Virus record (IMG/VR): IMGVR_UViG_3300047558_000092
Length of the DNA stretch: 64,000 bases
DNA from: a virus
Lineage: Duplodnaviria > Heunggongvirae > Uroviricota > Caudoviricetes
Strand: one strand, 5' to 3'
Each line of letters opens with the position of its first letter. The first letter of the stretch is position 1. Position numbers and translations under genes: made by a program. The notes beneath the pieces were generated by a model. It was not told where the DNA came from and made no database searches. It was given only the letters and a program-made list of their open reading frames with translations. Positions 3,814 to 60,540 of this stretch are shown here, in pieces.

Positions 3814-4331
3814 GTCGATTAACCAGTATGTCGCCAGAAGCGATTAAGGCAGTATTCTCTCCAGATTCAGACGCAGACTTAATCTTTTTATTAACTGTCT
3901 ATGACCCTCTTCATCCATCACAAGTAGTTGCAAGATTGTCAGACGGTTTTACACAAAGATTAAGCGAAACAGAAAATGAAGTAATCTATGGGGTAAGAAG
4001 TAATGGCAGTGATTTTATCTTCTTACCTATGGAGGTTGGTTTACCTACTGAAGAGGAAGCTCAGGCTCCGCGCTGTTCAATTACTTTGCACGATGTTACC
4101 AGATATATTATACCAATTATTAGAAATATTACAGCTCCACCACCTATTAAGATGGAGCTAGTATTATCGAAAACACCTGACATTGTGGAGGTATCTTTTG
4201 ATGGTTTTTATATTAACAGTTTTACGTACAATGCAGATTCTGTAACTGCTAACCTCTCTATGATTGATTTGGAGAGAGAACCATTTCCAGCTCACTCTTT
4301 TACACCGAGATATTTCCCGGGTATGTTCTAA
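3810..4331 (+). CDS. minor tail protein (gpL-like position)
   Basis: 173 aa, start overlaps upstream stop (ATGA); lies between tape measure and tail-tip genes. Confidence 0.45.
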   Translation: MSRLTSMSPEAIKAVFSPDSDADLIFLLTVYDPLHPSQVVARLSDGFTQRLSETENEVIYGVRSNGSDFIFLPMEVGLPTEEEAQAPRCSITLHDVTRYIIPIIRNITAPPPIKMELVLSKTPDIVEVSFDGFYINSFTYNADSVTANLSMIDLEREPFPAHSFTPRYFPGMF

Positions 4332-4353
4332 TTACATTTTTATGAGGTATTAA

Positions 4354-7300
4354 ATGTGGTCAAATAATTATATCGGCATTCCTTTTAAGTATAAAGGGAG
4401 AAACGAAGATGGCTTAGATTGTTGGGGTCTAGCTCGGCTCATTTATAAGAATGAGTATAATATTACCCTTCCATCCTTTAGTACTGAATATGAAGACAGT
4501 GATGCCGAACGTATCGCTGAACTTATTGCTCAGTACAAGGAGGGTTGGGATTCTATAGATACCCCTTCCGAAGGCACAGCTGTCGTATTCAGAATTCTAG
4601 GCCACGAATCTCATATCGGTGTTGCAGTTTCAAATACACATTTTATTCATGCAAGAGAAGGTTATGATTCAGCTATTGAATCTTTTGATTCACCTTACTG
4701 GAGAAAACGCATTGTCGGGCATTTTAAGTATAACTCTAATAAGGGTGTGATACTAAATACAGTACCGCATCCATTACGAACAGAGCGATACACCATGCCA
4801 GTTCCAGCAGGAACTAAATTGGACATATTAGCGGATTGGATTTTAAAAGAATATAATGTTGCCGAAGAAATTAAAAGTAAGGTTAATATTCTAGTTAATG
4901 GTAGAGTTATTGCAAAATCTGACTGGTCTTCTATTACTTTAAATGATAGTGATGTAGTTGAGTATCGAGCAGTACCTAATGGTGGTAACACAACGCGATT
5001 AATACTTACGCTTGCCGTTATGTATATTGCTTTTCAATTTGGTGGCGCTGTGGGCGGTCAAATGGGTTTTACAGGCGCTACGGCTCAAGCTGTTGGCTCT
5101 ATGACAATCTCAATGATTGGTACTGTAGCAATTAATTATATTGCGCCTATCAGACCTCCAGACATGGGGCCAGACCCTAAAGACGCAGGTAGCGCTGAAC
5201 GAGCTTTAATGGTTACTGGTGCTCAGAACCGTGGAACGCCTTATCAAGCTATTCCAGTGGTTTTAGGTAAAGTGCGTGTAACACCGCCATTAGGAGCTAA
5301 CAACTATTTAACTTATGAAACCGAGCGCGATAATTACTTATCTATGTTATTAGTATGGGGCTATGGCCCATTAACTATTTATGAAGATACTTTCAGAATT
5401 GGTGAGCAAACTATTTCAAATTATACGGACTATACATTAGTTAATTTAGATAGAAAAACTACTGAGACATTTGACGATCTTACCAAATTCAATGCAATAT
5501 ATGGTTCAGATATCACACAAACAAATCCGCGATTAGAATTAGTTTGTGAAGGAAATCCAGAAACCACTGTAACTGCTGGACCTTGGGCTGAAGCTGTGTC
5601 AACTGAGACTGTGCATTCATTAACCGTTGCAATTCATTTTCCACAAGGTTTACGTAAAGTTAAAACTAAAGGTAATGGTGCAGGTGATAGCTTAAAAGCT
5701 CCAGTATCTTTTGATATGGAGTACTACTTTAACAATACTTGGATTAATCTAGGCTCTGTTACAATAGGTGCAGATTCACCTAAAAAGGACGCTTTTACAT
5801 ATACAAAAACTTTCTCAGTATATGCAGACGATTTACAACTTCCCCTATATAATGAAGGTTTAACCTTCAGAATTCGAAGAACTACTGGAGATAATGTTGA
5901 AGATAATCCAGATTACCGATATTATTTTCAAGCATATCTGCAAACTGTGACTTTTTCTCAGAATGCAGCCCCTGCTTCAGACCCAAACAACTGTAAGCTG
6001 GCAAAATCAGCTTTTAAAATTAAAGCTACAGATCAGTTAAATGGCTCTATTGAAGGTATTAATGCAATTGTTCAAACCTACGCTAAAGATTGGAATGGCT
6101 CGTCTTGGGTTTTAAATAGCACGAATAATCCAGCTTCACTATTTAGATATGTATTAGAACATCCTGCCAATGCTCAGAAGATTACAAGCACTTCTAAACT
6201 AGATTTAGTACAACTTCAACACTGGCATACATATTGTGCAAATAAAGGTTTTACCTTTAACTCTGTATTAGGAAGTCAGAAAAGTATTTTAGAAGTTCTA
6301 AGAGATATCTGCGCAGCTGGTCGTGCAAGTCCTGCATTAATAGATGGTAAATGGACAGTGACTATTGATGAAGAGAAACCTAATGTCATACAACATTTTA
6401 CACCGCATAACAGTTGGGATTTTGAATCAACAAAAACTTTACCACGAATTCCAGACGGTCTACGAGTAACTTATTTTGATGAAGATCAGAATTATCAAGA
6501 GAGTGAAATTATTGTATACTCTGCAGGTAAGAATAGTGGTAACTCATCAATGTTTGAGTCTATTCAGTTACCTGGTGTAACTAAAAAATCTGCCGTAATC
6601 GATCATGCAAGATGGCACATTGCTCAAGCTAAACTCCGCCCTGAACTTTATACATTAAATACTGACATTGAGTATCTTGTATGTAATAGAGGTGATCGAG
6701 TTAAAGTAGCTCATGATGTGCCTATGTGGGGTGTCGGTAGTGGTCGAATTAAAAATAGAGTATCTAATGTCGTTTTTGATTTAGATGAACCTCAAACTTA
6801 CGATTCCACTAAGGAATATTTAATAAGAGTTAGAGGCTCAAATGGAGCAAGCACTGTTAGAAATTTAGTGACTACTGCAACTGTTACTAGCTATTCTACA
6901 TCGAATAATTATAGTACAGTTGTATTTGATGGTACAGGGCACCCATTCAGTATAGGTGCATATGTTAAAGTAACATTAGATACTGCTTCCGAGCATTATT
7001 TAGATATGCTAGTACAAATTACTGATATAACTGAAAACAGTGTAACCTACTATAATATCGAGGGTGATGATGAAGTAACAGCAGCCACTGGAACACTTAC
7101 TCTTGCTGACGGATATATTACAAGGGTAAAATTAGATGATACAACTACTCAAGCCGAGGTAAATAGTTCAGACTTATTTATATTTGGTGAAATAGAGTCT
7201 GACTCTCAGGACTTGATTGTATTAAGTATTGAGCCTACAACTAACAAGTCTGCAAGGATTACGTTAATTGATTATGGAGTAACTTCAGACTATAATATTT

Positions 7301-9494: not shown

Positions 9495-10256
9495 ATGGCT
9501 AATCATAATTTACCTACGCAAACTAGTGGGTACTTAGATTTCGTTACACAGTTGGATTCACGATTTGATGATTTAGCAAGGGGTCTTGACCCCTCTAAGT
9601 CGCCAGTAGGTGACCCAACTATCAGTAATTTACCAGTTGATTCAATTGGCTGGAGTAGTGAAAATAATAAATGGCGTAAGTGGAATGGTAGTGCATGGGT
9701 TTCCCTTGTAGTAAACGACCTTTACGCTATTAATATTTCAGGTAATGCTGCCACTGTTACTAATGGTGTTTACACAACTGGCACTCAAACTATTGGAGGC
9801 TCTAAAACCTTCTCTAGTGTTATTAGTGGCTCTATTGACGGTAATGCTGCTACTGTTACAGGCGGTGTTTATACTTCAGGTAATCAGACAATTGCTGGTA
9901 TAAAAACATTTAGCAGCACCATCGTTGGCTCGATCAATGGTAATGCTGCTACCGTTACAGGTGGTGTTTATACTTCTGGTGACCAAACTATTGCAGGTAT
10001 AAAAACATTTTCTAGTAAGATTACTGGGTCTATTAGCGGTAACTGCGATGGTAATGCTGCTACAGCTACAAGTGCTGCTACTGCTACTACTGCTACTACT
10101 GCTACTAAAGCAACTTCGTTGCAGACTACTGGTTGGGTTGTGGAAGAAGTCGGAACGGTACTGCAATTTAAATATGGCGGCATTGTTAAGATGACATTGG
10201 ATATAGATGGTAATATTAAGGCACTAGGTGATATCGAAGCCTACAGCACAATTTAA
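9495..10256 (+). CDS. tail fibre protein with tandem ~32 aa repeats
   Basis: 253 aa; four repeats of GNAATVTGGVYTSGxQTIAGIKTFSS followed by an Ala/Thr trinucleotide-repeat tract; immediately downstream of the tail tip gene. Confidence 0.7.
   Translation: MANHNLPTQTSGYLDFVTQLDSRFDDLARGLDPSKSPVGDPTISNLPVDSIGWSSENNKWRKWNGSAWVSLVVNDLYAINISGNAATVTNGVYTTGTQTIGGSKTFSSVISGSIDGNAATVTGGVYTSGNQTIAGIKTFSSTIVGSINGNAATVTGGVYTSGDQTIAGIKTFSSKITGSISGNCDGNAATATSAATATTATTATKATSLQTTGWVVEEVGTVLQFKYGGIVKMTLDIDGNIKALGDIEAYSTI
9735..10115 (+). repeat. ~96 bp tandem repeats (x4) plus GCT/ACT trinucleotide tract inside the fibre gene
   Basis: repeated ggtaatgctgctactgttacaggcggtgtttatacttcaggt... units and gctgctactgctactactgctactactgctact. 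Confidence 0.6.
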
Positions 10257-35972: not shown

Positions 35973-36422
35973 ATGCAAATGAAATCTGAATTCGATAGCT
36001 TGGTTGAACGTATGGGTCTTGATGAAGATGAACGTAATTTAGCTGAAATCTTCTGGAAACGTGCTGAAAAAGCTGTGCAAGGTAAACCTATTCAAGAAGC
36101 TTTCCTTTTAGGCGGTGAGCCAGTAAATTTCGAAGTACGTAACACCGTTATCCTGCACAATATCGAAACCTTAAGCAACGAAGAAATTGATTTTATGGTT
36201 CAAATGAATCGTGGTGCGCTAACCGCATTGGAAGAGATTAAGAAGCTTATCAATCAATCAATTCAAAGTGAATGGGTACAGTGTGACCCTGAAAATCCTG
36301 CTACACTTGATTCCTTCCAAGCACTGAACGAGTACAAAAAACTGAAGCGCAAGATTAAGCGTCAATCTAATACACTCGCAGGTATTCAACGTAAACTCAA
36401 GAAAGCTAAGGGCACTCTCTAA
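35973..36422 (+). CDS. hypothetical protein
   Basis: 149 aa, strong RBS, helical, basic C-terminus. Confidence 0.5.
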   Translation: MQMKSEFDSLVERMGLDEDERNLAEIFWKRAEKAVQGKPIQEAFLLGGEPVNFEVRNTVILHNIETLSNEEIDFMVQMNRGALTALEEIKKLINQSIQSEWVQCDPENPATLDSFQALNEYKKLKRKIKRQSNTLAGIQRKLKKAKGTL

Positions 36423-36769
36423 TGTCGAGTAGAAAACGCTACACTATCGTAGCTACATGTTTTGACCGCAAAGGTAAGGTACTAGGAACTGGTACTAACA
36501 ACTATAATAAGTCTCACCCGCTTATGCAGCACTTCGCAGTCAAAGCTGGAGAATCAGACGAAAAGATTTACCAACATGCAGAGTTATCCGCTGTGCTACA
36601 ATCTGGACGTAAAGATATCCACAGCATTCTAGTGCAGCGTTTTCATGATAATGGTGATATGGCTATTGCCAAGCCTTGTCCAACTTGTCAAGCAATGCTG
36701 AAAGGTTTTGGTGTTCGCTTTGTTCGTTATACTTCAGAGAATGGTGTACAAGAATATGAAAATACTTAA
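36422..36769 (+). CDS. small cytidine/deoxycytidylate deaminase-fold protein
   Basis: 115 aa; zinc motifs HAE (YQHAELSAV) and PCxxC (KPCPTCQAM). Confidence 0.5.
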   Translation: MSSRKRYTIVATCFDRKGKVLGTGTNNYNKSHPLMQHFAVKAGESDEKIYQHAELSAVLQSGRKDIHSILVQRFHDNGDMAIAKPCPTCQAMLKGFGVRFVRYTSENGVQEYENT

Positions 36770-37304
36770 TATTTCTGACATTTTTTATTATGATGAAACT
36801 AGTCCTAGCTGTTTGCGTTGGAATATTTCTCCCTCTAAATTAATACAAATTGGCTCAGTCGCGGGTACAATTAATATCAGTGGAGATATCGAAAGATATC
36901 GAGTTATGTATAAAGGCAGCTTTTATCAAGTGGCTAGAGTTATATTCAAAATATTTAACCCTAGTATGGATGAAGAACTTTATGTGGACCACTACGATGG
37001 TAATACCTTAAACAACAGAATAGGGAATTTACGACTAACTGATGTTAAAGGTAATGGTCAGAACCGTAAGAAAAACTACAATAATTTGTCAGGAGTCACT
37101 GGTGTATATTTTCATACTAAAAGTAACTCTTGGAGGGCAGCTTGGAAAGAAGATTCGAAAACAATTCAAAAGTCTTTTTCGTGCAACAAATATCTTAATG
37201 CTTTCGAGATGGCTTGTGCATATCGAAAAAATATACTAGAATTGTTAAATAATAATGGTTGTAATTATACAGAAAGGCATGGTAAAGAATATGAAGTTTT
37301 ATAA
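36756..37304 (+). CDS. HNH homing endonuclease with AP2-like DNA-binding domain
   Basis: start set at MKILNISDIFYYDETS...; VDHYDGNTLNNRIGNLR HNH core; C-terminal AP2-like SGVTGVYFHTKSNSWRAAW; paralog of 39911..40492. Confidence 0.7.
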   Translation: MKILNISDIFYYDETSPSCLRWNISPSKLIQIGSVAGTINISGDIERYRVMYKGSFYQVARVIFKIFNPSMDEELYVDHYDGNTLNNRIGNLRLTDVKGNGQNRKKNYNNLSGVTGVYFHTKSNSWRAAWKEDSKTIQKSFSCNKYLNAFEMACAYRKNILELLNNNGCNYTERHGKEYEVL

Positions 37305-37560
37305 TCCGTTTAAAGCTCACATTGTAGAGTTTGCTGATGGTACTTTCGCTGTACGTAAGCGAGGTTGGTGTGGTTTACTGTGGGTATATAAGGACCGCAA
37401 TGCGTGGTTGGGTGGATTCTTTGAAGATATCATGTGGTGGACTATTGACTATATTGACCATTCTAAAGTTAGCACTTTTGAAAGAGCTGTAGAAGTTATG
37501 GAGAAACAACCTCCAGATAAATTAACACCTAAGACTATTGTAAAGGTGTATCATGGCTAG
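37255..37560 (+). CDS. hypothetical protein
   Basis: 101 aa ORF, Trp-rich. Confidence 0.4.
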   Translation: MVVIIQKGMVKNMKFYNPFKAHIVEFADGTFAVRKRGWCGLLWVYKDRNAWLGGFFEDIMWWTIDYIDHSKVSTFERAVEVMEKQPPDKLTPKTIVKVYHG

Positions 37561-38005
37561 TCAAAAAGAACTTGATAGTGTTTACATGCAGACAGCTCTA
37601 ACTCATGCAATGCTCTCAAAAGCTATTAGAGCGCAGGTAGGAGCTGTTTTAGTTACTAGTCATGGGGTAACCCTCACTGGTTACAATGGTACTGCTAAAG
37701 GGCGTGATAATTGCTGTGAAGTTCTGAAACCACAACCATTTCCACACGAACCTGCTTTGGAGACTAAATCAGAAGTTATCCATGCAGAATTGAACTGTAT
37801 CTTGAAAGCTGCCAGAGAAGGTGTGAGTTGTATTGATTCAACGGTATACGTAACGCTTGCACCTTGTGTACAGTGCGCTGCTATGATGGTTCAAGCTGGC
37901 GTAAGACGTTTAGTTTATAAGACACCTTACCGCGATACCTCTGGCTTAAACTTGCTAGAAGGTTCTGGTGTAAGAATCCAACAGTACAGTGAGACACAAC
38001 TATGA
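37553..38005 (+). CDS. dCMP deaminase
   Basis: 150 aa; HAELNCIL and PCVQCAAMM zinc motifs with typical dCMP deaminase spacing. Confidence 0.75.
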   Translation: MASQKELDSVYMQTALTHAMLSKAIRAQVGAVLVTSHGVTLTGYNGTAKGRDNCCEVLKPQPFPHEPALETKSEVIHAELNCILKAAREGVSCIDSTVYVTLAPCVQCAAMMVQAGVRRLVYKTPYRDTSGLNLLEGSGVRIQQYSETQL

Positions 38006-41859: not shown

Positions 41860-42044
41860 CAGATGTAAGATTTAACGAACCTATTTGCACTACTGATGGT
41901 ACGCCATATGTATCTGTAGGTCAAAATGAAATGCAAGTTTATATTAGACTTGAACGATATAAAGATTTAGCAGTTGTTTTAGATAAACGCTGCTTACCTC
42001 AACTAATCCCACAATTAAAGGAAATATTGGATGATTTCAGCTAA
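41856..42044 (+). CDS. hypothetical protein
   Basis: 62 aa ORF. Confidence 0.35.
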   Translation: MTDVRFNEPICTTDGTPYVSVGQNEMQVYIRLERYKDLAVVLDKRCLPQLIPQLKEILDDFS

Positions 42045-42933
42045 AATTATTGCAGACAGTTATAACGAAATCCACGGAACTCGCCTAACTACATTTGAAT
42101 TAGTTTATCCACGATTTATTCATGGCGAACTAATGACGCATCGCAAGTTTAGCCGTAATGCTGCCAGCTCTCGTGCTATCCCAATTGATAAGGTAATTGA
42201 ACTGGTTGAGACAACACCAGCTATGCCTGTACATTGGGGTGCTAACCAAGCAGGTATGCAAGCTAAGGCAGAAGTATCTGATAAAGAACGTGCAATTAAA
42301 TTGTGGTTATCCTCTCGTGATAGCGCAGTAAAGTATGCTAAGGCTATGAAAGATGCAGGGTTACATAAACAAATTGTAAACCGTATTCTTGAGCCATATC
42401 AGCTTATGAAGACAATCGTAACTGCTACCGATTATAATAATTGGTTCTGGTTACGTGACCATGAAGATGCACAACCTGAGATTGCAGAACTTGCAGCGGT
42501 AATGTGTGTAGAATATGCTGCACATATTCCAGAAGAGTTAACTGTCGGTGAGTGGCATGTACCTTATGTAAAAACATACCGTGATTCACATACTGGTGAG
42601 CGATTCTATCTAGATGAAAACGACAAGTACATCACTATGGAAGAGGCCCGTATGATTAGCGCCAGCTGTTGCGCTCAAGTTAGCTATCGTAAGAACGATG
42701 GTAGCTTAGAGAAGGCTTCTATGGTGTTTGACCGATTGATTAACTCAGTACCAGTGCATGCATCACCAGTTGAGCATATCGCTACACCGATTGACGATGT
42801 ACCGTTTGTTGAAGAATACCTTAAGATTGAAGGTGTAACTCACATCGACAAATACTATCAACCTCACAGTGGTAACTTATGTGGTTGGATTCAATTCCGT
42901 CAGCTAATCCCTAACAATGTAAAGGAAGGTTAA
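42031..42933 (+). CDS. thyX: flavin-dependent thymidylate synthase
   Basis: 300 aa; ThyX signature ELMTHRKFSRNAASSRAIP (RHRxxSxxxxSxR). Confidence 0.7.
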   Translation: MISAKIIADSYNEIHGTRLTTFELVYPRFIHGELMTHRKFSRNAASSRAIPIDKVIELVETTPAMPVHWGANQAGMQAKAEVSDKERAIKLWLSSRDSAVKYAKAMKDAGLHKQIVNRILEPYQLMKTIVTATDYNNWFWLRDHEDAQPEIAELAAVMCVEYAAHIPEELTVGEWHVPYVKTYRDSHTGERFYLDENDKYITMEEARMISASCCAQVSYRKNDGSLEKASMVFDRLINSVPVHASPVEHIATPIDDVPFVEEYLKIEGVTHIDKYYQPHSGNLCGWIQFRQLIPNNVKEG

Positions 42934-50185: not shown

Positions 50186-50427
50186 GTCATGAACTAGCAG
50201 AGACTGAATGGAAAGGTATGCCTGAATTCGTACAGGAAAAGCAGGAACCATTTGCTAAAATTAATGTACGATTTCGTAATCAAGCTGACCTAGACGAGTT
50301 TGCAGCATTGATTGGTCAAAAGCTTACGCCTAAGACTAAGAGTATCTGGCATCCATTCTTAGAGCGAGGTATCAACGCGAATAAAAGGTATGTAGATGAC
50401 ACGGAGGGACACGCAAGTGAATCCTAA
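50182..50427 (+). CDS. hypothetical protein
   Basis: 81 aa ORF. Confidence 0.35.
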   Translation: MSHELAETEWKGMPEFVQEKQEPFAKINVRFRNQADLDEFAALIGQKLTPKTKSIWHPFLERGINANKRYVDDTEGHASES

Positions 50428-51283
50428 ATATCCTATTTACATTGTATCTAAGGGTAGAGCGCATACACGACTAACTAGTAAGGCTCTAGAACGCACGAGA
50501 GTACCCTACAGCATCGTTGTTGAAGAGCAGGAATACCTAGAGTACTCCAAGGTGATTGACCCCTCTAAAATCCTTGTTTTACCACAGAGCTGGTTAGATG
50601 AGTATGATACTTGTGATAGTTTAGGCTCAACACTCAGTAAGGGACCCGGTGCGGCTCGTAACTTCTGCTGGTGGCATGCCAAACACCGAGGGTTCAAACG
50701 TCATTGGGTTATGGACGATAACCTAGACGCTTTCCATCGACTGAACCATAACATGAAAGTTGTGGTAGAAACTGGGGCTTGCTTTGCTGCAGCCGAGGAT
50801 TTTGTTGACCGTTATACCAATGTGCCATTAGCTGGTTTTAACTACTATTCGTTTGCAAAGGCAACAGATAGAGTAGCACCTTTTATTACAAACACACGAA
50901 TCTATTCATGTCTCTTAATTGAGAATTCTGCACCTTATCAGTGGCGTGGTAGATACAATGAAGATACGGACTTATCCCTACGTATGTTGAAAGATGGATG
51001 GTGTACAATTCAATTCAATGCATTCTTGCAGGGTAAGGTAACTACTCAACGTATGAGGGGTGGTAATACTGAAGAGTTCTATCGTCACGAAGGCACTAAG
51101 AACAAATCACAAATGCTGGTAGACTTACATCCTGATGTAACTAAGCTTGTATGGAAATTTAATCGGTGGCATCATCAAGTTGATTATCGTCCGTTTAAAA
51201 ATAATCTGTTGATTAGACGCGAAGGACTAGAAATTCCTGATACAATCAACAACTATGGAATGAAACTAATCGAAAGGTCTTAA
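50396..51283 (+). CDS. hypothetical protein, possible GT-A-fold glycosyltransferase
   Basis: 295 aa; N-terminal YPIYIVSKGR beta-strand/Rossmann start and a VMDDNL DxD-like motif; weak. Confidence 0.35.
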   Translation: MTRRDTQVNPKYPIYIVSKGRAHTRLTSKALERTRVPYSIVVEEQEYLEYSKVIDPSKILVLPQSWLDEYDTCDSLGSTLSKGPGAARNFCWWHAKHRGFKRHWVMDDNLDAFHRLNHNMKVVVETGACFAAAEDFVDRYTNVPLAGFNYYSFAKATDRVAPFITNTRIYSCLLIENSAPYQWRGRYNEDTDLSLRMLKDGWCTIQFNAFLQGKVTTQRMRGGNTEEFYRHEGTKNKSQMLVDLHPDVTKLVWKFNRWHHQVDYRPFKNNLLIRREGLEIPDTINNYGMKLIERS

Positions 51284-53705: not shown

Positions 53706-54336
53706 GGAGTATTTATGTATTTGATTAATTTGTTCTTCTGTTTCTTAGCTGTGTTTTTCATGGTAGAATGTAAAGATAATCGTGCATTGTTCTGGTTGAA
53801 TGCTTTATCTTTGGTATTGAACTTTGCAGCTTTTGCTATGGGAGTGCTTGTATAATGAAGAACTGTCAAAACTGTAAGTTTCATTCACAAGGTATCGGTG
53901 CAGTAACTGCTAATGGTACTAAGTGGATGTGGCAAGAGTGCAGTAAGAATTGGGGTAAGCCTACACCTATTGGAGTTCTCAAAAACTTATGTGGGTTATG
54001 GCAAACAAAAGGAGATAAGTAATATGGGTTCAGGTTCTAAGTTTCGGTCCGATAGTGACTATACCTTCATTGCATTCGGCTTGGCGATTATACCTAAGGG
54101 TGAGCATGCGTTGAGTATTCATATTAATCTAGTCTTCTGGCATTTCTATTTTGGATTTGGTAAGGGCTATGACGAATAACTTAGTAAGGTAAACTGACTA
54201 TAAATACCTTGATTATCCGATAGTTAAATGCTATAATAGTTAAGCAATAGTTAAAGAAGTCATGAACTTTAATGATAAGAGCAGCTTTCCGTGGCTGCTT
54301 TTTGCTTTTCTATTACGGGTATTTATCGGAGAATAT

Positions 54337-54816
54337 ATGAAGAAATGTAGTTGCTGTAGAATTGAAAAACCTTTTACTGAGTTTCATAAGAATAAATCAG
54401 CTAAATCTGGTTATTCTAATTACTGTATCGAGTGCAGGAAGCTTACTAGAAATAACCCTAGAGGTACAAGACAAGCACTTGATGTGTTTGACCAAACTAG
54501 AGGGAATCATGTAGTATACCAATTCTATGATGTAAATGATGAATGTATTTATGTAGGTCAAACTGTAAATTTTATCAGGCGGTTGAACGATCATAAAGTT
54601 AGTAAGGTATTTTATAATCAAATTACAAAAATAGTGTGTAATATTGTAGAATCTTATCCAGACATGATATTCTTAGAGGCGCAATTAATTATAGAGATTA
54701 AACCAAAATATAATAAACAAGTTATTGGAGCTATTGCATCAAAATCAAAAATCTATGTAGCTAAAATAGTTGAGTACGATATTGAAGGTGTCGAACTAAA
54801 ACGTAAAACAATTTAA
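54337..54816 (+). CDS. GIY-YIG homing endonuclease
   Basis: start set at MKKCSCC; N-terminal Cys cluster, then VYQFYDVNDECIYVGQTVNFIRRLNDHK GIY-YIG core. Confidence 0.6.
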   Translation: MKKCSCCRIEKPFTEFHKNKSAKSGYSNYCIECRKLTRNNPRGTRQALDVFDQTRGNHVVYQFYDVNDECIYVGQTVNFIRRLNDHKVSKVFYNQITKIVCNIVESYPDMIFLEAQLIIEIKPKYNKQVIGAIASKSKIYVAKIVEYDIEGVELKRKTI

Positions 54817-54953
54817 AAATCCACGCACCCCTTTCGGAATTAAAAAGCCGTGAGGGGTTTTGTTTTGCCTAAAAATTCTATTCTACCAAAAAGCCGCGAT
54901 TAAACCAAAAACCCACGTGCCATTTGGTGAAATAAAATCAGTCTAATGCTCAA

Positions 54954-55031
54954 ATTTTGCGCCGAAATTTTGCATCGTGAAACGCGATTTTGCATTGTGA
55001 AATTAACCGTTTTACATCGTGAAAAATAGCC
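54954..55031. repeat. AT-rich iteron set: about 3.5 copies of a ~22 bp unit ATTTTGCATCGTGAAA
   Basis: attttgcgccga / aattttgcatcgtgaaacgcg / attttgcattgtgaaattaacc / gttttacatcgtgaaaaatagcc. Confidence 0.6.
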
Positions 55032-55066
55032 GTAACTTGTTGATTTTAAACGATTTTATGGCCACA

Positions 55067-55416
55067 GGTGACCAGCGCCTGAACCAGCAGCGAAGCGGTA
55101 AAGGTAACCAGCAGAGGAAACCAGCGAAGGTGACCAGCGCCTGAACCAGCAGCGAAGCGGTAAAGGTAACCAGCAGAGGAAACCAGCGAAGGTGACCAGC
55201 GCCTGAACCAGTACAGGTAACCAGCAGAGGAAATCAGCGAAGGTGACCAGCAGAGGAAACCAGCGAAGGTGACCAGCGCCTGAACCAGTACAGGTAACCA
55301 GCAGAGGAAATCAGCGAAGGTGACCAGCAGAGGAAACCAGCGAAGGTGACCAGCGAAGGTGACCAGCGCCTGAACCAGTACAGGTAACCAGCGAAGGTGA
55401 CCAGCAGAGGAAACCA
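55067..55416. repeat. complex tandem repeat array built from GGTGACCAGC / GGTAACCAGC modules (two perfect 62 bp units, then 51/26/13 bp variants)
   Basis: 55067..55128 and 55129..55190 are identical; GGTGACCAGC occurs 9 times; the minus-strand ORF 55046..55426 is a translation artefact of the repeats. Confidence 0.7.
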
Positions 55417-55890
55417 AAGAACACAAACAAACTAAAATCTAGTACTTTTATTTGCAGAATACCGATAGATTTTATTTATTGCACCGATAGAAAATATTTA
55501 TGATGAAAGTGGTTTTATCTGGTTTTATTTGCCATAATAGAGGCACTCAAACAAATCAACCACAGGAAAAATAAACCATGTTTATGCTCAAAGTATCAGC
55601 CGCAATGATTATCGGGGCAGGTGTAATGCTCACAGGGGCAGCGCAGGGGAGCGCCTTAATTATGGCCGCACCATTTATCATTTTAATGACAATCATTTGC
55701 GTGAAAGGTTAAGCATGAAAACCAAGATTTTAAACGCCGTTATTTTCGCCGCATCATTCGCCGTGATTCTCGCATGTATGCTAGAATACTTTGATTGTCT
55801 CACACGTTAAATTGTCAGTTATAGCCCCTGATTCAAGCGGGAGCTATAGCGGGTAATTTCACCCGATATTGTCTCACAGGAATAAACACC

Positions 55891-56223
55891 ATGACAAACG
55901 AAACCAGCACCACAGCAGCAGCCGCCACCGTTACAGCACCAGCACCAGCGAAGCAGCCGCAGCGATACACAAAAACGGTTTTTATCACAGGCACAAAACA
56001 GGCCGAACAATTCGCCGCGCTCCGTGTCGGTCAGTGGGTCCACGGGTTAAGCCTTAACGGACAATCAGGGCTTTACAGGGGCCAGTTTTTGGGCTTTGAT
56101 AACGTGGGTTTACCCGTGGTAAATTTCCGCATGGATAACACCCCGAACCGCCTACAATGGCGCGAACAGTTCGCAAGTAATAAGCCCCTGCGAACCTTCG
56201 CCAAGATTAAGAGCACAATCTAA
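55891..56223 (+). CDS. hypothetical protein in the high-GC island
   Basis: 110 aa, Ala/Thr-rich N-terminus; GC-rich codon usage unlike the rest of the window. Confidence 0.4.
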   Translation: MTNETSTTAAAATVTAPAPAKQPQRYTKTVFITGTKQAEQFAALRVGQWVHGLSLNGQSGLYRGQFLGFDNVGLPVVNFRMDNTPNRLQWREQFASNKPLRTFAKIKSTI

Positions 56224-56237
56224 ACTAGGGGCATAAC

Positions 56238-56426
56238 ATGAAGCGAATCATTCTCACAATTCATGCAGACGGAACAGCCACCGCGAAGGGCTTATTTATT
56301 GACGCGCGGGAAAGTGTAAACAGCTTAAACCGTACATATAAAACCGAAGCCCAAGCACTGCAAGATTTTGCAGACATGCGCGACCGTGACTGTGAATTCT
56401 CTTTTACAGTTAGCCGCAAGGTTTAA
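56238..56426 (+). CDS. hypothetical protein (high-GC island)
   Basis: 62 aa ORF. Confidence 0.35.
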   Translation: MKRIILTIHADGTATAKGLFIDARESVNSLNRTYKTEAQALQDFADMRDRDCEFSFTVSRKV

Positions 56427-56505
56427 CAGCCTTACAACGCCCCGAAGCTTGACCACCTAGGGGTTAGCCTACCAACTCGACCAATAAACAACCAGAGCCG
56501 ACAAA

Positions 56506-57180
56506 ATGACAACATATAAAACCTTTGAAATTGTAGACCTCAGCAAGAAACAAGCGCAGAGCGTATGCGGTAGCCTTACCACAACCAGTAAGATGCCTTG
56601 TAAGTCGTACAGTTTACCGACTGAAGCGTGCAAAACGGGTTACAAAATGGCTCAAATTAGCGGCAGTATTTGCGCTTCATGTTATGCGGATAAAGGGAAT
56701 TATGCGCGATATGCTAACGGCATAAAACCCGCGCAATTCGCCCGACTTGATGCAATTATGCACCCTTACTGGATTAGCGGTATTATCGCCCTCATTGGCT
56801 CAGACGCTTATTTTAGGTGGCATGATAGCGGAGATTTACAGAGCTTAGAGCATCTAGAGCAAATCGCAGAGGTTGCCAAGTTGACCCCTAATTGTCAGCA
56901 TTGGCTACCGACTAGGGAATACGGCATTGTAAAAGCGTATATTGAGAAACACGGCAAACCGCCCTTTAATCTGACAATTCGACTATCGGCAATGTATGCA
57001 GATAAACCCGTTATTATCCCTAAATCTTTGCAGAATATCCAAGGGGTAACAGCTTCAAACGTACACACCAAGGGCAAGACCGTAAGCGGTACACAGTGCA
57101 AAAGTACAGAGCAACAAGGAGAGTGTAGAGAATGCCGCCTATGCTGGACGGGTGAAATTGTCAGTTATCAGATGCACTAA
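56506..57180 (+). CDS. Cys-rich hypothetical protein (high-GC island)
   Basis: 224 aa with several Cys clusters (CGS...C, CASCYADKGNY, CRECRLC). Confidence 0.4.
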   Translation: MTTYKTFEIVDLSKKQAQSVCGSLTTTSKMPCKSYSLPTEACKTGYKMAQISGSICASCYADKGNYARYANGIKPAQFARLDAIMHPYWISGIIALIGSDAYFRWHDSGDLQSLEHLEQIAEVAKLTPNCQHWLPTREYGIVKAYIEKHGKPPFNLTIRLSAMYADKPVIIPKSLQNIQGVTASNVHTKGKTVSGTQCKSTEQQGECRECRLCWTGEIVSYQMH

Positions 57181-57339
57181 AGGGCTCAATTATGCGTTAT
57201 ATACTGATTCTGGTTTCATTCTGGTTTATATTGTGGTGCATTGTGCTAGGTGTATGCTTATTGGCATATAGCCGCGCCTATACCGCGCAACAGTTACGCC
57301 TATTTAACCCGCCTTAATAGCCGCGCCTTATACGCGCAT

Positions 57340-60037: not shown

Positions 60038-60466
60038 ATGGAGTCTTATAAAGGAGTTCGTGTGCAATCAACTAACATTGTAAAATTAGAAAAGAAAACT
60101 AGTCCAAAGAACACATGGATTAGGTCTTCGCACGAGCTACTGAAACGTAAGGACTTAACATCTAATGCTAAATTAGTATATTCACATATGTTGGATAAAT
60201 ATGTATTCTTTAGTAGTCAAAATAAAGAGTACTATGAAAATCTAGTGGATATTGGTGAAGCCTTAGGTGGAATGGCTAAACAAACTGTTAGCGACTGCAT
60301 CAAGAAATTAAAAGAAGCTAACCTAATTATTGTACGTACAAAAAATGTCTACTCAAGCACTAAATCAATTGTGTCGAATAACTACATTGTGAAAGATGTG
60401 TACGGTATTTATGAACCACAGAAGCCTAAGCGAAAGCACTATGACGAAGATGATACGCCATTCTGA
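60038..60466 (+). CDS. winged-helix DNA-binding protein with SSB-like acidic C-terminal tail (candidate origin-binding/initiator protein)
   Basis: start set at MESYKGVRV (track ORF starts at 59915); HTH GGMAKQTVSDCIKKLKEANLIIV; C-terminus KPKRKHYDEDDTPF parallels the SSB tail EDEDTPF; iterons immediately downstream. Confidence 0.45.
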   Translation: MESYKGVRVQSTNIVKLEKKTSPKNTWIRSSHELLKRKDLTSNAKLVYSHMLDKYVFFSSQNKEYYENLVDIGEALGGMAKQTVSDCIKKLKEANLIIVRTKNVYSSTKSIVSNNYIVKDVYGIYEPQKPKRKHYDEDDTPF

Positions 60467-60473
60467 TAGTCCG

Positions 60474-60540
60474 AAAATCTTACCTATGATAGTCCGAAAA
60501 TCTTACCTATGATAGTCCGAAAATTAGCCCCTAATAAGAC
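60474..60540. repeat. three tandem 22 bp iterons (GATAGTCCGAAAATCTTACCTAT)
   Basis: tgatagtccgaaaatcttacctatgatagtccgaaaatcttacctatgatagtccgaaaattagcccc, directly after the stop of 60038..60466. Confidence 0.7.

What the first reader, a model, noticed from the sequence alone, without database searches (positions are those of the whole stretch)
54840..55440. Six-hundred bp repeat-dense noncoding region: AT-rich 22 bp iterons plus a 350 bp nested GGTGACCAGC repeat array at the edge of a high-GC island
Set 1 (54954..55031) is an AT-rich set of about 3.5 copies of ATTTTGCATCGTGAAA-type iterons. Set 2 (55067..55416) is a GC-rich array containing two perfect 62 bp units followed by 51, 26 and 13 bp derivatives, with the 10-mer GGTGACCAGC nine times and GGTAACCAGC five times. 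This looks like an origin of replication, a genome-terminus or terminal-repeat boundary, or a protein-binding centromere-like array. It is not a CRISPR array because there are no unique spacers. It marks the junction between the AT-rich phage backbone and a GC-rich insert.
Basis: seen in the sequence. Interest (0 to 1): 0.7.

Follow-up and report, generated by a model that had tools for sequence, protein, structure and literature searches.

The report
Phage control locus: tandem array replaces DnaA boxes
A 760-bp non-coding hub conserved in a family of freshwater phages, probably their replication origin or early control region, carries clustered host DnaA-binding sites in most relatives, but in this phage those sites are replaced by about 27 head-to-tail copies of a 13-bp motif.

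Summary
There are three and a half 15-16-bp direct repeats at 54952-55024. A 355-bp array at 55066-55420 is built from about 27 units of 12-13 bp (consensus RAGGTRACCAGCR). GGTGACCAGC occurs 9 times and GGTAACCAGC 5 times, against 0.09 expected. The array is non-coding, matches no Rfam family and is not a CRISPR array.

The window is a new relative of Limnohabitans phage DC31. Twenty-one related loci share one architecture: terminator, AAAA(A/G)CCG boxes, lineage-specific iterons, a variable core, an AT-rich repeat stretch, then an early promoter. In 16 loci the core holds 2-10 consensus DnaA boxes converging on an AT palindrome, often tandemly amplified at 11-bp period. In 4 loci, the window included, there are no DnaA boxes. 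These have a T-depleted (0-8% T), purine-rich tandem array instead. One locus has neither. Two phages 97% identical in the flanks carry the alternative cores, so the cores are swapped by recombination.

Best reading (confidence about 0.4): the array is an amplified protein-binding platform in the origin or early control locus, standing in for the DnaA-box cluster. No evidence places a genome end here. The "GC-rich insert" is conserved backbone. This is a new variant of a known kind, and its function is unproven.

The parts
54827..54868 (+). Terminator-like hairpin (CCCCUUUCGG...CCGUGAGGGG) followed by UUUUGUUUUG. It closes the long rightward gene block.
   Evidence: Fold: -15.4 kcal/mol, z = -1.45, so weak on its own. 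The sequence is conserved in L015, L032 and L129.
54842..54917 (+). Left-hand boxes: AAAAAGCCGTGA (54842-54853), AAAAAGCCGCGA (54888-54899) and CCAAAAACCCACG (54905-54917).
   Evidence: AAAAGCCGYG occurs only here in the window (2 found, 0.14 expected). Every relative has 2-3 such boxes at the same place.
54952..55024 (+). Iterons. Three copies of (A/G)TTTT(G/A)CAT(C/T)GTGAAA with start-to-start spacing of 20 and 22 bp, plus a half copy at 54952-54960.
   Evidence: The same motif, as the dyad form TTTCACATCGTGAAA, occurs 4 times in L014 and L030 and 3-4 times in L032. Other lineages have different iterons at this position (L015 T(T/G)TCAGAAT; DC31 clade 20-mers).
55044..55068 (+). Conserved junction TTTTAAACGATTTTATGGCCACAGG at the left edge of the array.
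   Evidence: Equivalent sequences are AAAACGATATGG(T/C)AC(A/G)GAC in L014, L016, L018 and L030, and ATATCGGCCACGAC at the left edge of L015's unrelated array.
55066..55420 (+). Tandem array of about 27 units of 12-13 bp (RAGGTRACCAGCR), organised in 62-bp and 77-bp higher-order units. Composition on the + strand is A 36%, G 31.5%, C 25%, T 7%. This is the variable core of the locus.
   Evidence: The same kind of array lies at the same place in L031 and L029, and a compositionally identical but unrelated 25-mer array in L015. DnaA boxes are absent.
55421..55532 (+). AT-rich segment (72-75% AT). It contains TTTTAT(T/C)T(G/A)-type decamers 4 times (55446, 55470, 55513, 55523) and ACCGATAGA twice (55461-55469, 55483-55491). 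It is a candidate unwinding or regulatory element.
   Evidence: It is conserved in L029, L030 and L031, both with and without DnaA boxes to its left.
55530..55545 (+). Promoter-like extended -10 element TGcCATAAT followed by AGAGGCA. It is the presumed start of the downstream small-gene transcript.
   Evidence: The module TTTGCCATAATAGAG is conserved in L030 and L031 directly upstream of the first ORF's leader. Related modules occur in L124, L129 and L131. This is read from sequence. It was not found by the simple two-hexamer scan.
55578..55712 (+). First downstream ORF (44 aa, hydrophobic). It marks the right border of the non-coding locus.
   Evidence: Homologous ORFs lie in L030, L031 and L032.
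54262..54816 (+). Context: a GIY-YIG homing-endonuclease-like gene with an N-terminal zinc finger, inserted just left of the locus.
   Evidence: Pfam GIY-YIG 1.2e-7 and PHROG endonuclease hits. The gene is absent from L014, L015, L016 and L030. L121 has the same type, and L032 and L129 have a different nuclease with a homologous N-terminus.

Best explanation
The finding is the hypervariable core of a conserved cis-acting locus of DC31-like freshwater phages. This locus is most likely their replication origin or early control region.

The locus is a string of protein-binding sites in a fixed order:
- a terminator;
- 2-3 AAAA(A/G)CCG boxes;
- 3-6 lineage-specific iterons;
- a variable core;
- an AT-rich repeat stretch;
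- an early promoter.

In most relatives the core is a cluster of host DnaA boxes. These are often amplified head-to-tail at 11-bp period and converge on an AT-rich palindrome. In the window's lineage that cluster is gone. In its place a short locus-specific element (core ACCAGCGAAGG / GGTRACC) has been amplified to about 27 copies at 13-bp period.

I infer that the array works as a high-avidity binding platform for a DNA-binding factor, phage or host. That factor would do what DnaA does in the relatives: nucleate a complex next to the AT-rich stretch and the early promoter.

Shown: the anatomy, the conservation of order, the either/or relation between boxes and array, and the swap by recombination.

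Inferred: that the locus is an origin, that the array is protein-bound, and that it substitutes functionally for DnaA boxes.
For: 1. The array is real and unique to this locus.
2. The locus order is conserved in 21 related loci from independent metagenomes and in the cultured phage DC31.
3. Perfect DnaA boxes number 17 in 5.2 kb of locus DNA against 1 in 87.6 kb of flanking phage DNA. The layout is direct boxes, then the AT palindrome CTTATATAAG, then inverted boxes.
4. Sixteen loci have boxes and no T-poor array, 4 have T-poor arrays and no boxes, and 1 has neither.
5. L030 (boxes) and L031 (array) are 97.2% identical over 5.6 kb and diverge only on approaching the locus.
6. Tandem amplification of sites is the norm at this locus: DnaA boxes x7.9 at 11 bp (L123), ATATAAGC x9.5, and 16-mers x8-9.5.
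7. The array joint ACCAGCGAAGG also lies directly 5' of the first DnaA box in L018 and L030. RCCARC motifs are 100% on the + strand in all loci. Their number tends to rise as DnaA boxes fall (Spearman -0.68, p = 0.07, n = 8, loci not independent).
8. The non-coding right flank is at least as conserved between the window and L029/L031 (84% and 76%) as the adjacent coding DNA (73-74%).
9. The phage has a T7-gp4-like primase-helicase and a Pol I-type polymerase but no recognisable initiator. It is the only large repeat-dense non-coding stretch in 64 kb.
Against: - The window itself has no DnaA box.
- No initiator or DNA-binding gene is recognisable nearby or in the early block.
- GC skew follows gene orientation only and says nothing about an origin.
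- In T5, a similar untranslated region with DnaA boxes is argued not to be an origin (10.1101/866236).
- Unit sequences differ greatly between array-type loci while composition is conserved. That fits a property of the strand, such as a transcript or R-loop, at least as well as a sequence-specific binder.
- The neighbouring small genes do not co-vary with core type. The window's 110-aa gene is closer to the box-type L014 (81%) than to the array-type L031 (74%).
Confidence: 0.4

Rival explanations
1. Transcribed element. The array is part of a rightward transcript with U-poor, purine-rich RNA. It could act as an R-loop that opens or primes the origin without DnaA, as in ColE1, T4 or T7-type initiation. 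Alternatively it could act as a long leader or RNA sponge carrying about 20 Shine-Dalgarno-like AGG motifs.
For: - Composition, not sequence, is what the four array-type loci share: purines 64-68% and T 0-8% on the strand co-directional with all flanking genes.
- Units resemble this phage group's own leaders. L030's leader AGGAAACCAGCATTATG matches the unit AGGAAACCAGC, and L129's leader contains ATCAGCGAAG.
- In L015 a promoter-like module (TTTGCCAATAGCA...CATGCCAAC) lies about 20 bp upstream of the T-free array.
- The replisome is T7-like.
Against: - No sigma-70-like promoter was found upstream of the window's array (and reading of 54870-55066).
- A terminator-like hairpin lies upstream, and there is no terminator downstream.
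- There is no Rfam match.
- The fold z-scores (-4.2 and -3.1) are explained by the self-complementary GGTNACC core.
- The extra promoter-like modules lack the conserved -7 T.
Confidence: 0.17
2. Non-functional minisatellite. The core of this locus is a recombination- and slippage-prone spacer, and the array is a neutral expansion tolerated between functional flanks.
For: - The core is hypervariable. It is swapped between near-identical phages, and homing endonucleases insert beside it.
- One relative (L129) has neither boxes nor array.
- Bacterial rpmH-dnaA spacers show comparable lineage-specific short tandem repeats.
Against: - The higher-order unit structure (A-B-C-D) and exact units (CGAAGGTGACCAGC) are shared by the window, L031 and L029, although their coding flanks are only 73-85% identical.
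- Strand polarity and composition are conserved across unrelated units.
- The array is present only where DnaA boxes are absent.
Confidence: 0.15
3. Decoy that titrates a host factor. Relatives use amplified DnaA boxes to soak up host DnaA, in the manner of datA, and so shut off host initiation. On this reading the array soaks up another host DNA-binding protein.
For: - Relatives have up to 10 DnaA boxes, tandemly amplified at 11 bp (L123). That is more than an origin would seem to need.
- A virulent phage with its own replisome does not obviously need DnaA.
- A Burkholderiales MAG has AGGTGACCAGCCC x5 in its rpmH-dnaA spacer (L063).
Against: - Relatives of L063 carry different repeats at that spot, so the match may be coincidence.
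- I estimate that about 10 chance 13-bp arrays would satisfy my search pattern in 596 Gb (my estimate, not a tool result).
- Unit sequences differ among close phage relatives, which is unexpected if one host protein is the target.
Confidence: 0.1
4. Terminus-proximal, injection or packaging signal. The locus would mark a physical genome end or terminal-repeat boundary, comparable to T5 Repeat Region 3 (the proposed injection stop signal) or the short-repeat arrays beside T7's terminal repeat.
For: - T5 RR3 is a 1.2-kb untranslated region with 8 DnaA boxes in inverted pairs, 9 tandem DRD repeats and palindromes, with an HNH endonuclease inserted nearby.
- Many relatives' contigs end in or near the locus. 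Two end 13 bp and 4 bp past the DnaA-box/palindrome core, where no long repeat explains the break (L127, L130).
- GP88 homologues lie within 0.05-5 kb of the record start in several unrelated phages.
Against: - Most contig ends are inside tandem arrays (L015, L027, L029, L031, L124) or in ordinary coding DNA (L017, L033).
- L126, identical to L127, reads through.
- L014, L016, L030, L032, L118, L120, L123 and others span the locus.
- DC31 assembled as a circle with the locus internal, and its TerL is ORF12 while the locus lies between ORF29 and ORF30.
- There is no long direct repeat in the window, and no A1/A2-like genes were seen in the scans made.
Confidence: 0.12
5. Partition centromere. 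The array would be bound by a ParR, ParB or RHH-type adaptor, as in parC or parS arrays.
For: Many short head-to-tail repeats with a partly palindromic core (GGTNACC) resemble parC-type centromeres. This rests on established knowledge of R1, pSK41 and pB171 parC.
Against: - There are no ParA, ParM, TubZ or adaptor genes near the locus or among the other window ORFs I scanned.
- The phage has a virulent-type gene content.
- The 13-bp period is out of helical phase.
- Relatives have DnaA boxes at this position instead.
Confidence: 0.03

Closest known systems
Iteron-plus-DnaA-box theta origins of plasmids and phage-plasmids (P1 oriR, RK2 oriV, pSC101 ori, F oriS)
   Same: Relatives have direct-repeat iterons beside a cluster of consensus DnaA boxes and an AT-rich segment, all in one intergenic region. 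The window keeps the iterons and the AT-rich segment.
   Different: No rep or initiator gene adjoins the iterons. The window has no DnaA box at all. A 355-bp GC-rich, T-poor 13-mer array has no counterpart in those origins. Replication function is untested. The comparison rests on my knowledge of those origins.
Bacteriophage T5 Repeat Region 3 (proposed injection stop signal; Davison, bioRxiv 10.1101/866236)
   Same: It is an untranslated region of about 1 kb in a virulent phage, packed with direct repeats, inverted repeats and palindromes. DnaA boxes sit in inverted arrangement around a spacer, next to a run of 9 tandem repeats. It is better conserved than neighbouring ORFs and has a homing endonuclease inserted beside it.
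   Different: T5 RR3 lies at the inner edge of a 10-kb terminal repeat and is tied to two-step injection through A1 and A2. Here there is no evidence of a terminal repeat, and no A1/A2 genes were seen. The window lacks DnaA boxes. There is no sequence similarity.
Phage lambda ori (four O-protein iterons plus an AT-rich, strand-asymmetric segment)
   Same: A few dyad-like iterons at about two-turn spacing are followed by a strand-asymmetric stretch and an AT-rich region, with nearby transcription. This is from my own knowledge.
   Different: Lambda ori lies inside the initiator gene O. Its asymmetric segment is about 40 bp and AT-rich, not a 355-bp GC-rich tandem array.
DnaA-box clusters used for titration (E. 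coli datA)
   Same: Relatives carry tandemly amplified DnaA boxes, up to 10 in about 600 bp. The window's array could be the analogue for another protein.
   Different: datA has 5 spaced boxes plus an IHF site on a chromosome. Nothing here shows titration. The window's motif has no known binding protein.
parC-type centromeres (R1, pSK41, pB171)
   Same: Ten or more short head-to-tail repeats form one array.
   Different: The period here is 13 bp rather than 10-11 bp. There are no partition genes, the genome is that of a virulent phage, and relatives have DnaA boxes in this place.

Membership tests
Iteron/DnaA-box replication origin | Three or more direct repeats (iterons) of 15-22 bp | tested here: met
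   There are 3.5 copies at 54952-55024. The same motif occurs 4 times in L014 and L030.
Iteron/DnaA-box replication origin | Cluster of consensus DnaA boxes (TTATCCACA, at most 1 mismatch) | tested here: not met
   No box lies in 54817-55577 and no perfect box lies in the whole window. The feature is met in 16 related loci.
Iteron/DnaA-box replication origin | Adjacent AT-rich unwinding element | tested here: inconclusive
   55417-55536 is 72-75% AT and carries a repeated TTTTATTT-type motif 4 times. Unwinding was not tested.
Iteron/DnaA-box replication origin | Cognate initiator (Rep) gene next to the iterons | tested here: not met
   Neighbouring ORFs give no Rep, HTH or initiator hits in Pfam, PHROGs or PDB sequence searches.
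Iteron/DnaA-box replication origin | Supports initiation of replication | not testable with these tools
   This needs marker-frequency analysis, 2D gels or an autonomous-replication assay.
T5-type repeat region / injection stop signal | Untranslated, repeat- and palindrome-dense region conserved above neighbouring ORFs | tested here: met
   
T5-type repeat region / injection stop signal | Paired DnaA boxes in inverted repeats | tested here: not met
   Absent in the window. Present in relatives.
T5-type repeat region / injection stop signal | Position at the inner boundary of a long terminal repeat | tested here: inconclusive
   There is no long repeat in the window, and many relatives read through the locus. 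Two contigs end at the core without explanation. No read data are available.
T5-type repeat region / injection stop signal | A1/A2-type pre-early genes | not tested
   None appeared among the 40 ORFs scanned with PHROGs. I made no dedicated search.
CRISPR array / RNA anti-CRISPR repeat | Repeats of 28-37 nt separated by unique spacers, or a solitary CRISPR-like repeat | tested here: not met
   The units are 12-13 nt and head-to-tail with no spacers. There is no Rfam match, CRISPR-DR families included, at E <= 1.
Partition centromere (parC/parS) | Adjacent partition NTPase and adaptor genes | tested here: not met
   None appear in the family scans of the neighbours or of the larger ORFs of the window.
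Known non-coding RNA family | Match to an Rfam covariance model | tested here: not met
   Only tRNAs match at gathering threshold. Nothing matches in 54700-55700 at E <= 1.
pac/cos packaging site | Location in or beside the terminase genes | tested here: not met
   There is no terminase near the locus in the window. In DC31, TerL is ORF12 and the locus lies between ORF29 and ORF30.

The most novel reading that the evidence does not exclude
Nearly identical phages carry interchangeable cores at one initiation or control locus. One core is a DnaA-box cluster that depends on the host initiator. The other is a T-depleted tandem array that works without DnaA. The array might act through an R-loop formed by a purine-rich transcript, through a still unknown array-binding initiator, or by copying a host element such as the 13-mer array in a Burkholderiales rpmH-dnaA spacer. 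That would be a natural case of origin-mechanism swapping in a virulent phage.
Probability: 0.15. Interest if true: 0.75.

Novelty: new variant of a known kind. Interest (0 to 1): 0.5.

Why it matters
DC31-like phages infect abundant freshwater Burkholderiales and are found worldwide (PMC12195039), yet nothing is known about their cis-acting DNA.

This locus is the clearest candidate for their origin or early control region. It offers a ready-made natural experiment: L030 and L031 are 97% identical in their flanks but carry a DnaA-box core and a tandem-array core respectively.

If the array does replace DnaA boxes functionally, it would show how a virulent phage can gain or lose dependence on the host initiator by a single recombination. 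It would also point to a new binding protein or an R-loop mechanism.

There is a practical point too. These arrays repeatedly break short-read assemblies (five contigs here), so "incomplete" genomes of this group are often cut exactly at this locus.

Tried and rejected
- **Near-identical DNA in GenBank phages:** none found.
- **The 21-mer from the array in IMG/VR:** none found.
- **Coding repeat:** rejected. There are stops in all + frames and the periods are not multiples of 3.
- **Known RNA:** rejected.
- **GC skew as an origin marker:** uninformative, because it tracks gene orientation.
- **Genome-wide promoter or operator motif:** rejected. All the small motifs are unique to the locus. CCGATAW is barely enriched.
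- **Restriction-site story for GGTNACC:** rejected. There are 12 sites outside the array against about 8.6 expected.
- **Chi-like reading (GCTGGT on the - strand) and T7-primase-site reading (TGGTC, about 9-10 times):** I considered both from memory and dropped them. The motif is not conserved in the relatives' arrays (CATGCCAGC, CGACAGCGACC), which presumably infect similar hosts.
- **parS resemblance of the dyad iteron (TTTCAC-ATC-GTGAAA):** noted, but a 3-bp insertion separates the half sites and the window's copies are not dyads.
- **Bacterial arrays with the same core** (genome scan): most have unrelated contexts and are probably chance 13-bp VNTRs. The rpmH-dnaA case (L063) was followed through DnaA homologues and is inconclusive.
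- **Physical ends at the locus:** contig ends of L017 and L033 are in coding DNA. The left end of Acinetobacter phage AM24 has no comparable structure.
- **Co-variation of neighbouring genes with core type:** none seen.
- **Relic DnaA box at the array's left edge (TTATGGCCACAGG):** rejected, because box-type relatives have the same conserved element there in addition to their boxes.
- **PDB sequence searches of three neighbouring proteins:** nothing found.
Full report
**1. Observation**

The region is exactly as described. Three copies of (A/G)TTTT(G/A)CAT(C/T)GTGAAA lie at 54967, 54987 and 55009, preceded by a half copy at 54952.

From 55066 to 55420 runs a tandem array:
- two perfect 62-bp units;
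- a 77-bp higher-order unit repeated at 99% identity;
- shorter derivatives.

TRF gives a base period of 13 bp and 24.7 copies. Parsing on the invariant (A/G)A(C/T)CAG(C/T) anchor gives 25 units spaced 12-13 bp apart, plus two degenerate ones.

GGTGACCAGC occurs 9 times and GGTAACCAGC 5 times, all on the + strand and all inside the array, against 0.09 expected.

The + strand of the array is A 36%, G 31.5%, C 25% and T 7%. All + frames carry stops. The 126-aa ORF on the - strand is an artefact of T depletion, and the periods are not multiples of three.

No Rfam family matches, even at E <= 1. RNA folding z-scores of -4.2 and -3.1 are explained by the self-complementary GGTNACC core.

The array exists in nature. 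An independent JGI contig is identical apart from 1 mismatch in 8.3 kb. A Logan contig from another run is 100% identical but begins inside the array.

**2. What genome this is**

The window has no close DNA match among GenBank phages. Its gene content includes:
- a Pol I-type polymerase (94% identical to the fragment "Flumine myo-like phage 1", otherwise under 50%);
- a T7-gp4-like primase-helicase, an exonuclease and ligases;
- ribonucleotide reductase, NAMPT and PRPP synthetase;
- thymidylate synthase and dCMP deaminase;
- a glucosyltransferase-like protein, several homing endonucleases and 12 tRNAs.

The closest cultured relative is Limnohabitans phage DC31. It is 76.2 kb, 37.6% GC, assembled as a circle, and infects a Burkholderiales host of 59% GC. 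Its paper does not discuss the non-coding DNA.

**3. The locus in relatives**

I used the flanking ClpP-like and 143-aa proteins as anchors and collected related loci from IMG/VR, metagenomes and DC31. Synteny is clear on both sides. The locus itself has almost no DNA similarity between lineages. Its architecture, however, is constant:
- a terminator-like hairpin;
- two or three AAAA(A/G)CC(G/T) boxes;
- 3-6 direct repeats whose sequence depends on the lineage;
- a variable core;
- an AT-rich stretch with short repeats;
- a promoter-like element and the first of several small rightward genes.

The iterons come in three types: TTTnnCATCGTGAAA in the window, L014, L030 and L032; T(T/G)TCAGAAT in L015; and 20-mers in the DC31 clade.

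All the small motifs of the window's locus are unique to it within 64 kb. It is the only long, repeat-dense non-coding stretch in the window.

**4. The variable core comes in two forms**

*DnaA-box form.* Sixteen loci have 2-10 consensus DnaA boxes: L014, L016, L018, L030, L032, L017, DC31, L118, L119, L120, L123, L124, L126, L127, L128 and L131. Direct boxes are followed by the AT-rich palindrome CTTATATAAG and then by inverted boxes. Perfect boxes number 17 in 5.2 kb of locus DNA against 1 in 87.6 kb of flanking phage DNA. In several loci the boxes themselves are amplified head-to-tail (GTTATCCACAG at 11-bp period, up to 7.9 copies). Other site classes are amplified too: ATATAAGC x9.5, and 16-mers x8-9.5.

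*Array form.* Four loci have no DnaA box in the sequenced part and carry a T-poor tandem array: the window, L031, L029 and L015.
- L031 has the same 13-mers as the window.
- L029 has a 49-bp unit homologous to the window's A-B-C-D units.
- L015 has an unrelated 25-mer, CGACAGCGACCAACAGAGCGACAGG, with no T at all.

All four share one composition, A 32-36%, T 0-8% and purines 64-68%, on the strand co-directional with the flanking genes.

*Neither.* One locus (L129) has neither boxes nor array.

L030 (boxes) and L031 (array) are 97.2% identical over 5.6 kb and diverge abruptly as the locus is approached. The cores are therefore exchanged by recombination.

Box-type members of the window's subclade already carry 4-9 copies of a related element, (C/T)(A/G)TGCCA(G/A)C, on the same strand to the left of the boxes. 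The count of RCCARC motifs tends to rise as DnaA boxes fall (Spearman -0.68, p = 0.07; loci not phylogenetically independent). The joint of the window's units, ACCAGCGAAGG, occurs directly 5' of the first DnaA box in L018 and L030, and as ATCAGCGAAG in L129's leader. This suggests the array grew from an element native to the locus.

**5. Interpretation**

Iterons, clustered DnaA boxes around an AT-rich palindrome and a nearby promoter make up the classical anatomy of a theta-type origin. The origin or early control reading is therefore the best supported for the locus as a whole.

In the window the box cluster has been replaced. I infer that the array is an amplified binding platform serving the same role, next to the 72-75% AT stretch at 55417-55536.

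The inference is weakened on several counts:
- No initiator gene is recognisable.
- GC skew is uninformative.
- Neighbouring genes do not co-vary with core type.
- What the arrays share is composition rather than sequence.

The last point keeps a transcript or R-loop mechanism alive. Array units look like this phage group's A/C/G-rich leaders, and L015 has a promoter-like module just upstream of its array. In the window, though, I find no upstream promoter, and there is a terminator-like hairpin.

**6. The terminus alternative**

T5's Repeat Region 3 is a true precedent for an untranslated, repeat-dense region with inverted DnaA boxes in a virulent phage. Its author argues it is an injection stop signal, not an origin.

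Many contigs of this phage group end in or near the locus.
- Five end inside tandem arrays (L015, L027, L029, L031, L124).
- Others end in homing-endonuclease insertions or in ordinary coding DNA.
- At least ten loci read through.

Two ends remain unexplained. L127 stops 13 bp past the last inverted box although the identical L126 continues, and L130 stops 4 bp past the palindrome. I therefore keep this rival at about 0.12.

**7. A lead that stayed inconclusive**

I scanned bacterial genomes for two units in 13-bp register. The scan found short 13-bp arrays with the same core in several phyla. One is in a Rubrivivax-like Burkholderiales MAG, where AGGTGACCAGCCC x5 lies in the rpmH-dnaA spacer.

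Relatives of that organism have conserved spacer ends and a hypervariable middle carrying other short repeats: 13 bp x2.5, 9 bp x7 and 12 bp x2. The search was also biased towards 13-bp VNTRs. Coincidence cannot be excluded.

**8. Verdict**

"Terminus" is unsupported and "GC-rich insert" is wrong. The feature is a new variant of a known kind: a phage origin or control locus whose DnaA-box cluster has been replaced by a tandem array. Its function is unproven. Interest is moderate (0.5).

Noticed in passing
window 60464-60524: A perfect 23-bp tandem repeat (TGATAGTCCGAAAATCTTACCTA x2.7) lies about 5 kb right of the finding. Every relative has a 22-24-bp x2.7-3 repeat at the syntenic place, but with a different sequence (L014 16087-16150, L018 5171-5235, L032 5266-5330 and others). 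This may be a second lineage-specific binding site.
   Followed up: no
window 54262-54816; L032 11632-12159; L129 about 4069-4555; L121 about 4069 to the contig end: The spot just left of the locus is a homing-endonuclease hotspot. The window and L121 have a GIY-YIG gene. L032 and L129 have a gene with a homologous N-terminal zinc-finger region (about 80% DNA identity over 215 bp) but a different C-terminus carrying an HNH-like HVDH...N motif, which Pfam does not detect. L014, L015, L016 and L030 have no insert.
   Followed up: partly
window 55578-57320: The "GC-rich island" (45-52% GC, with a T-poor coding strand) encodes genes whose orthologues in DC31 and L017 are AT-rich. An example is the 110-aa protein at 55891-56223 and its L017 counterpart at 9774-10030. 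This is a local compositional shift of conserved backbone genes rather than an insertion.
   Followed up: partly
L063 6583-6650 (Burkholderiales MAG JBBQMM010000171.1): AGGTGACCAGCCC x5 lies in the rpmH-dnaA intergenic spacer, near a TTATCCACA box. Close relatives (L107-L113) have other short tandem repeats at the same hypervariable spot.
   Followed up: partly
L123 3680-3765; L126/L127 3784-3861; L124 4060-4101: DnaA boxes are amplified head-to-tail at 11-bp period (GTTATCCACAG, up to 7.9 copies, giving 10 boxes in L123). This is unusually dense for any described phage element.
   Followed up: partly
L012 7442-7901 (IMGVR_UViG_3300025141_008753): A distant phage carries about 16 copies of a 22-bp repeat (GAGCGGAGAATTTTACA(C/T)G...) interleaved with a consensus promoter (TTGACA-17-TATAAT), about 0.9 kb downstream of its GP88-family gene.
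   Followed up: no
L127 end (4347); L130 end (4235): Two contigs end 13 bp and 4 bp past the DnaA-box/palindrome core, with no long repeat to explain an assembly break. The identical L126 reads through.
   Followed up: partly
L124 about 5990-6194: An 80-kb contig ends in a second tandem array (49-bp unit containing GCTTATATAAGC) about 2.2 kb right of the anchor gene. The palindrome motif of the locus recurs there.
   Followed up: no
window 36422-38005: A dCMP-deaminase fragment (36422-36769), an HNH endonuclease (36708-37304) and a full dCMP deaminase (37553-38005) lie in a row. This may be a gene split or duplicated by a homing endonuclease.
   Followed up: no
window 50396-51283, 42031-42933; L032 12264-12854: The window encodes a glucosyl-HMC-glucosyltransferase-like protein and a thymidylate-synthase-family protein, and L032 encodes a Mom-family protein. 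These hint that the phages modify their DNA.
   Followed up: no
window 9728-10107: There are 99-bp in-frame coding repeats (x3) followed by 9-bp repeats, inside the 253-aa ORF at 9495-10256 that follows the large 1712-aa ORF. This is probably a fibre-like structural protein.
   Followed up: no
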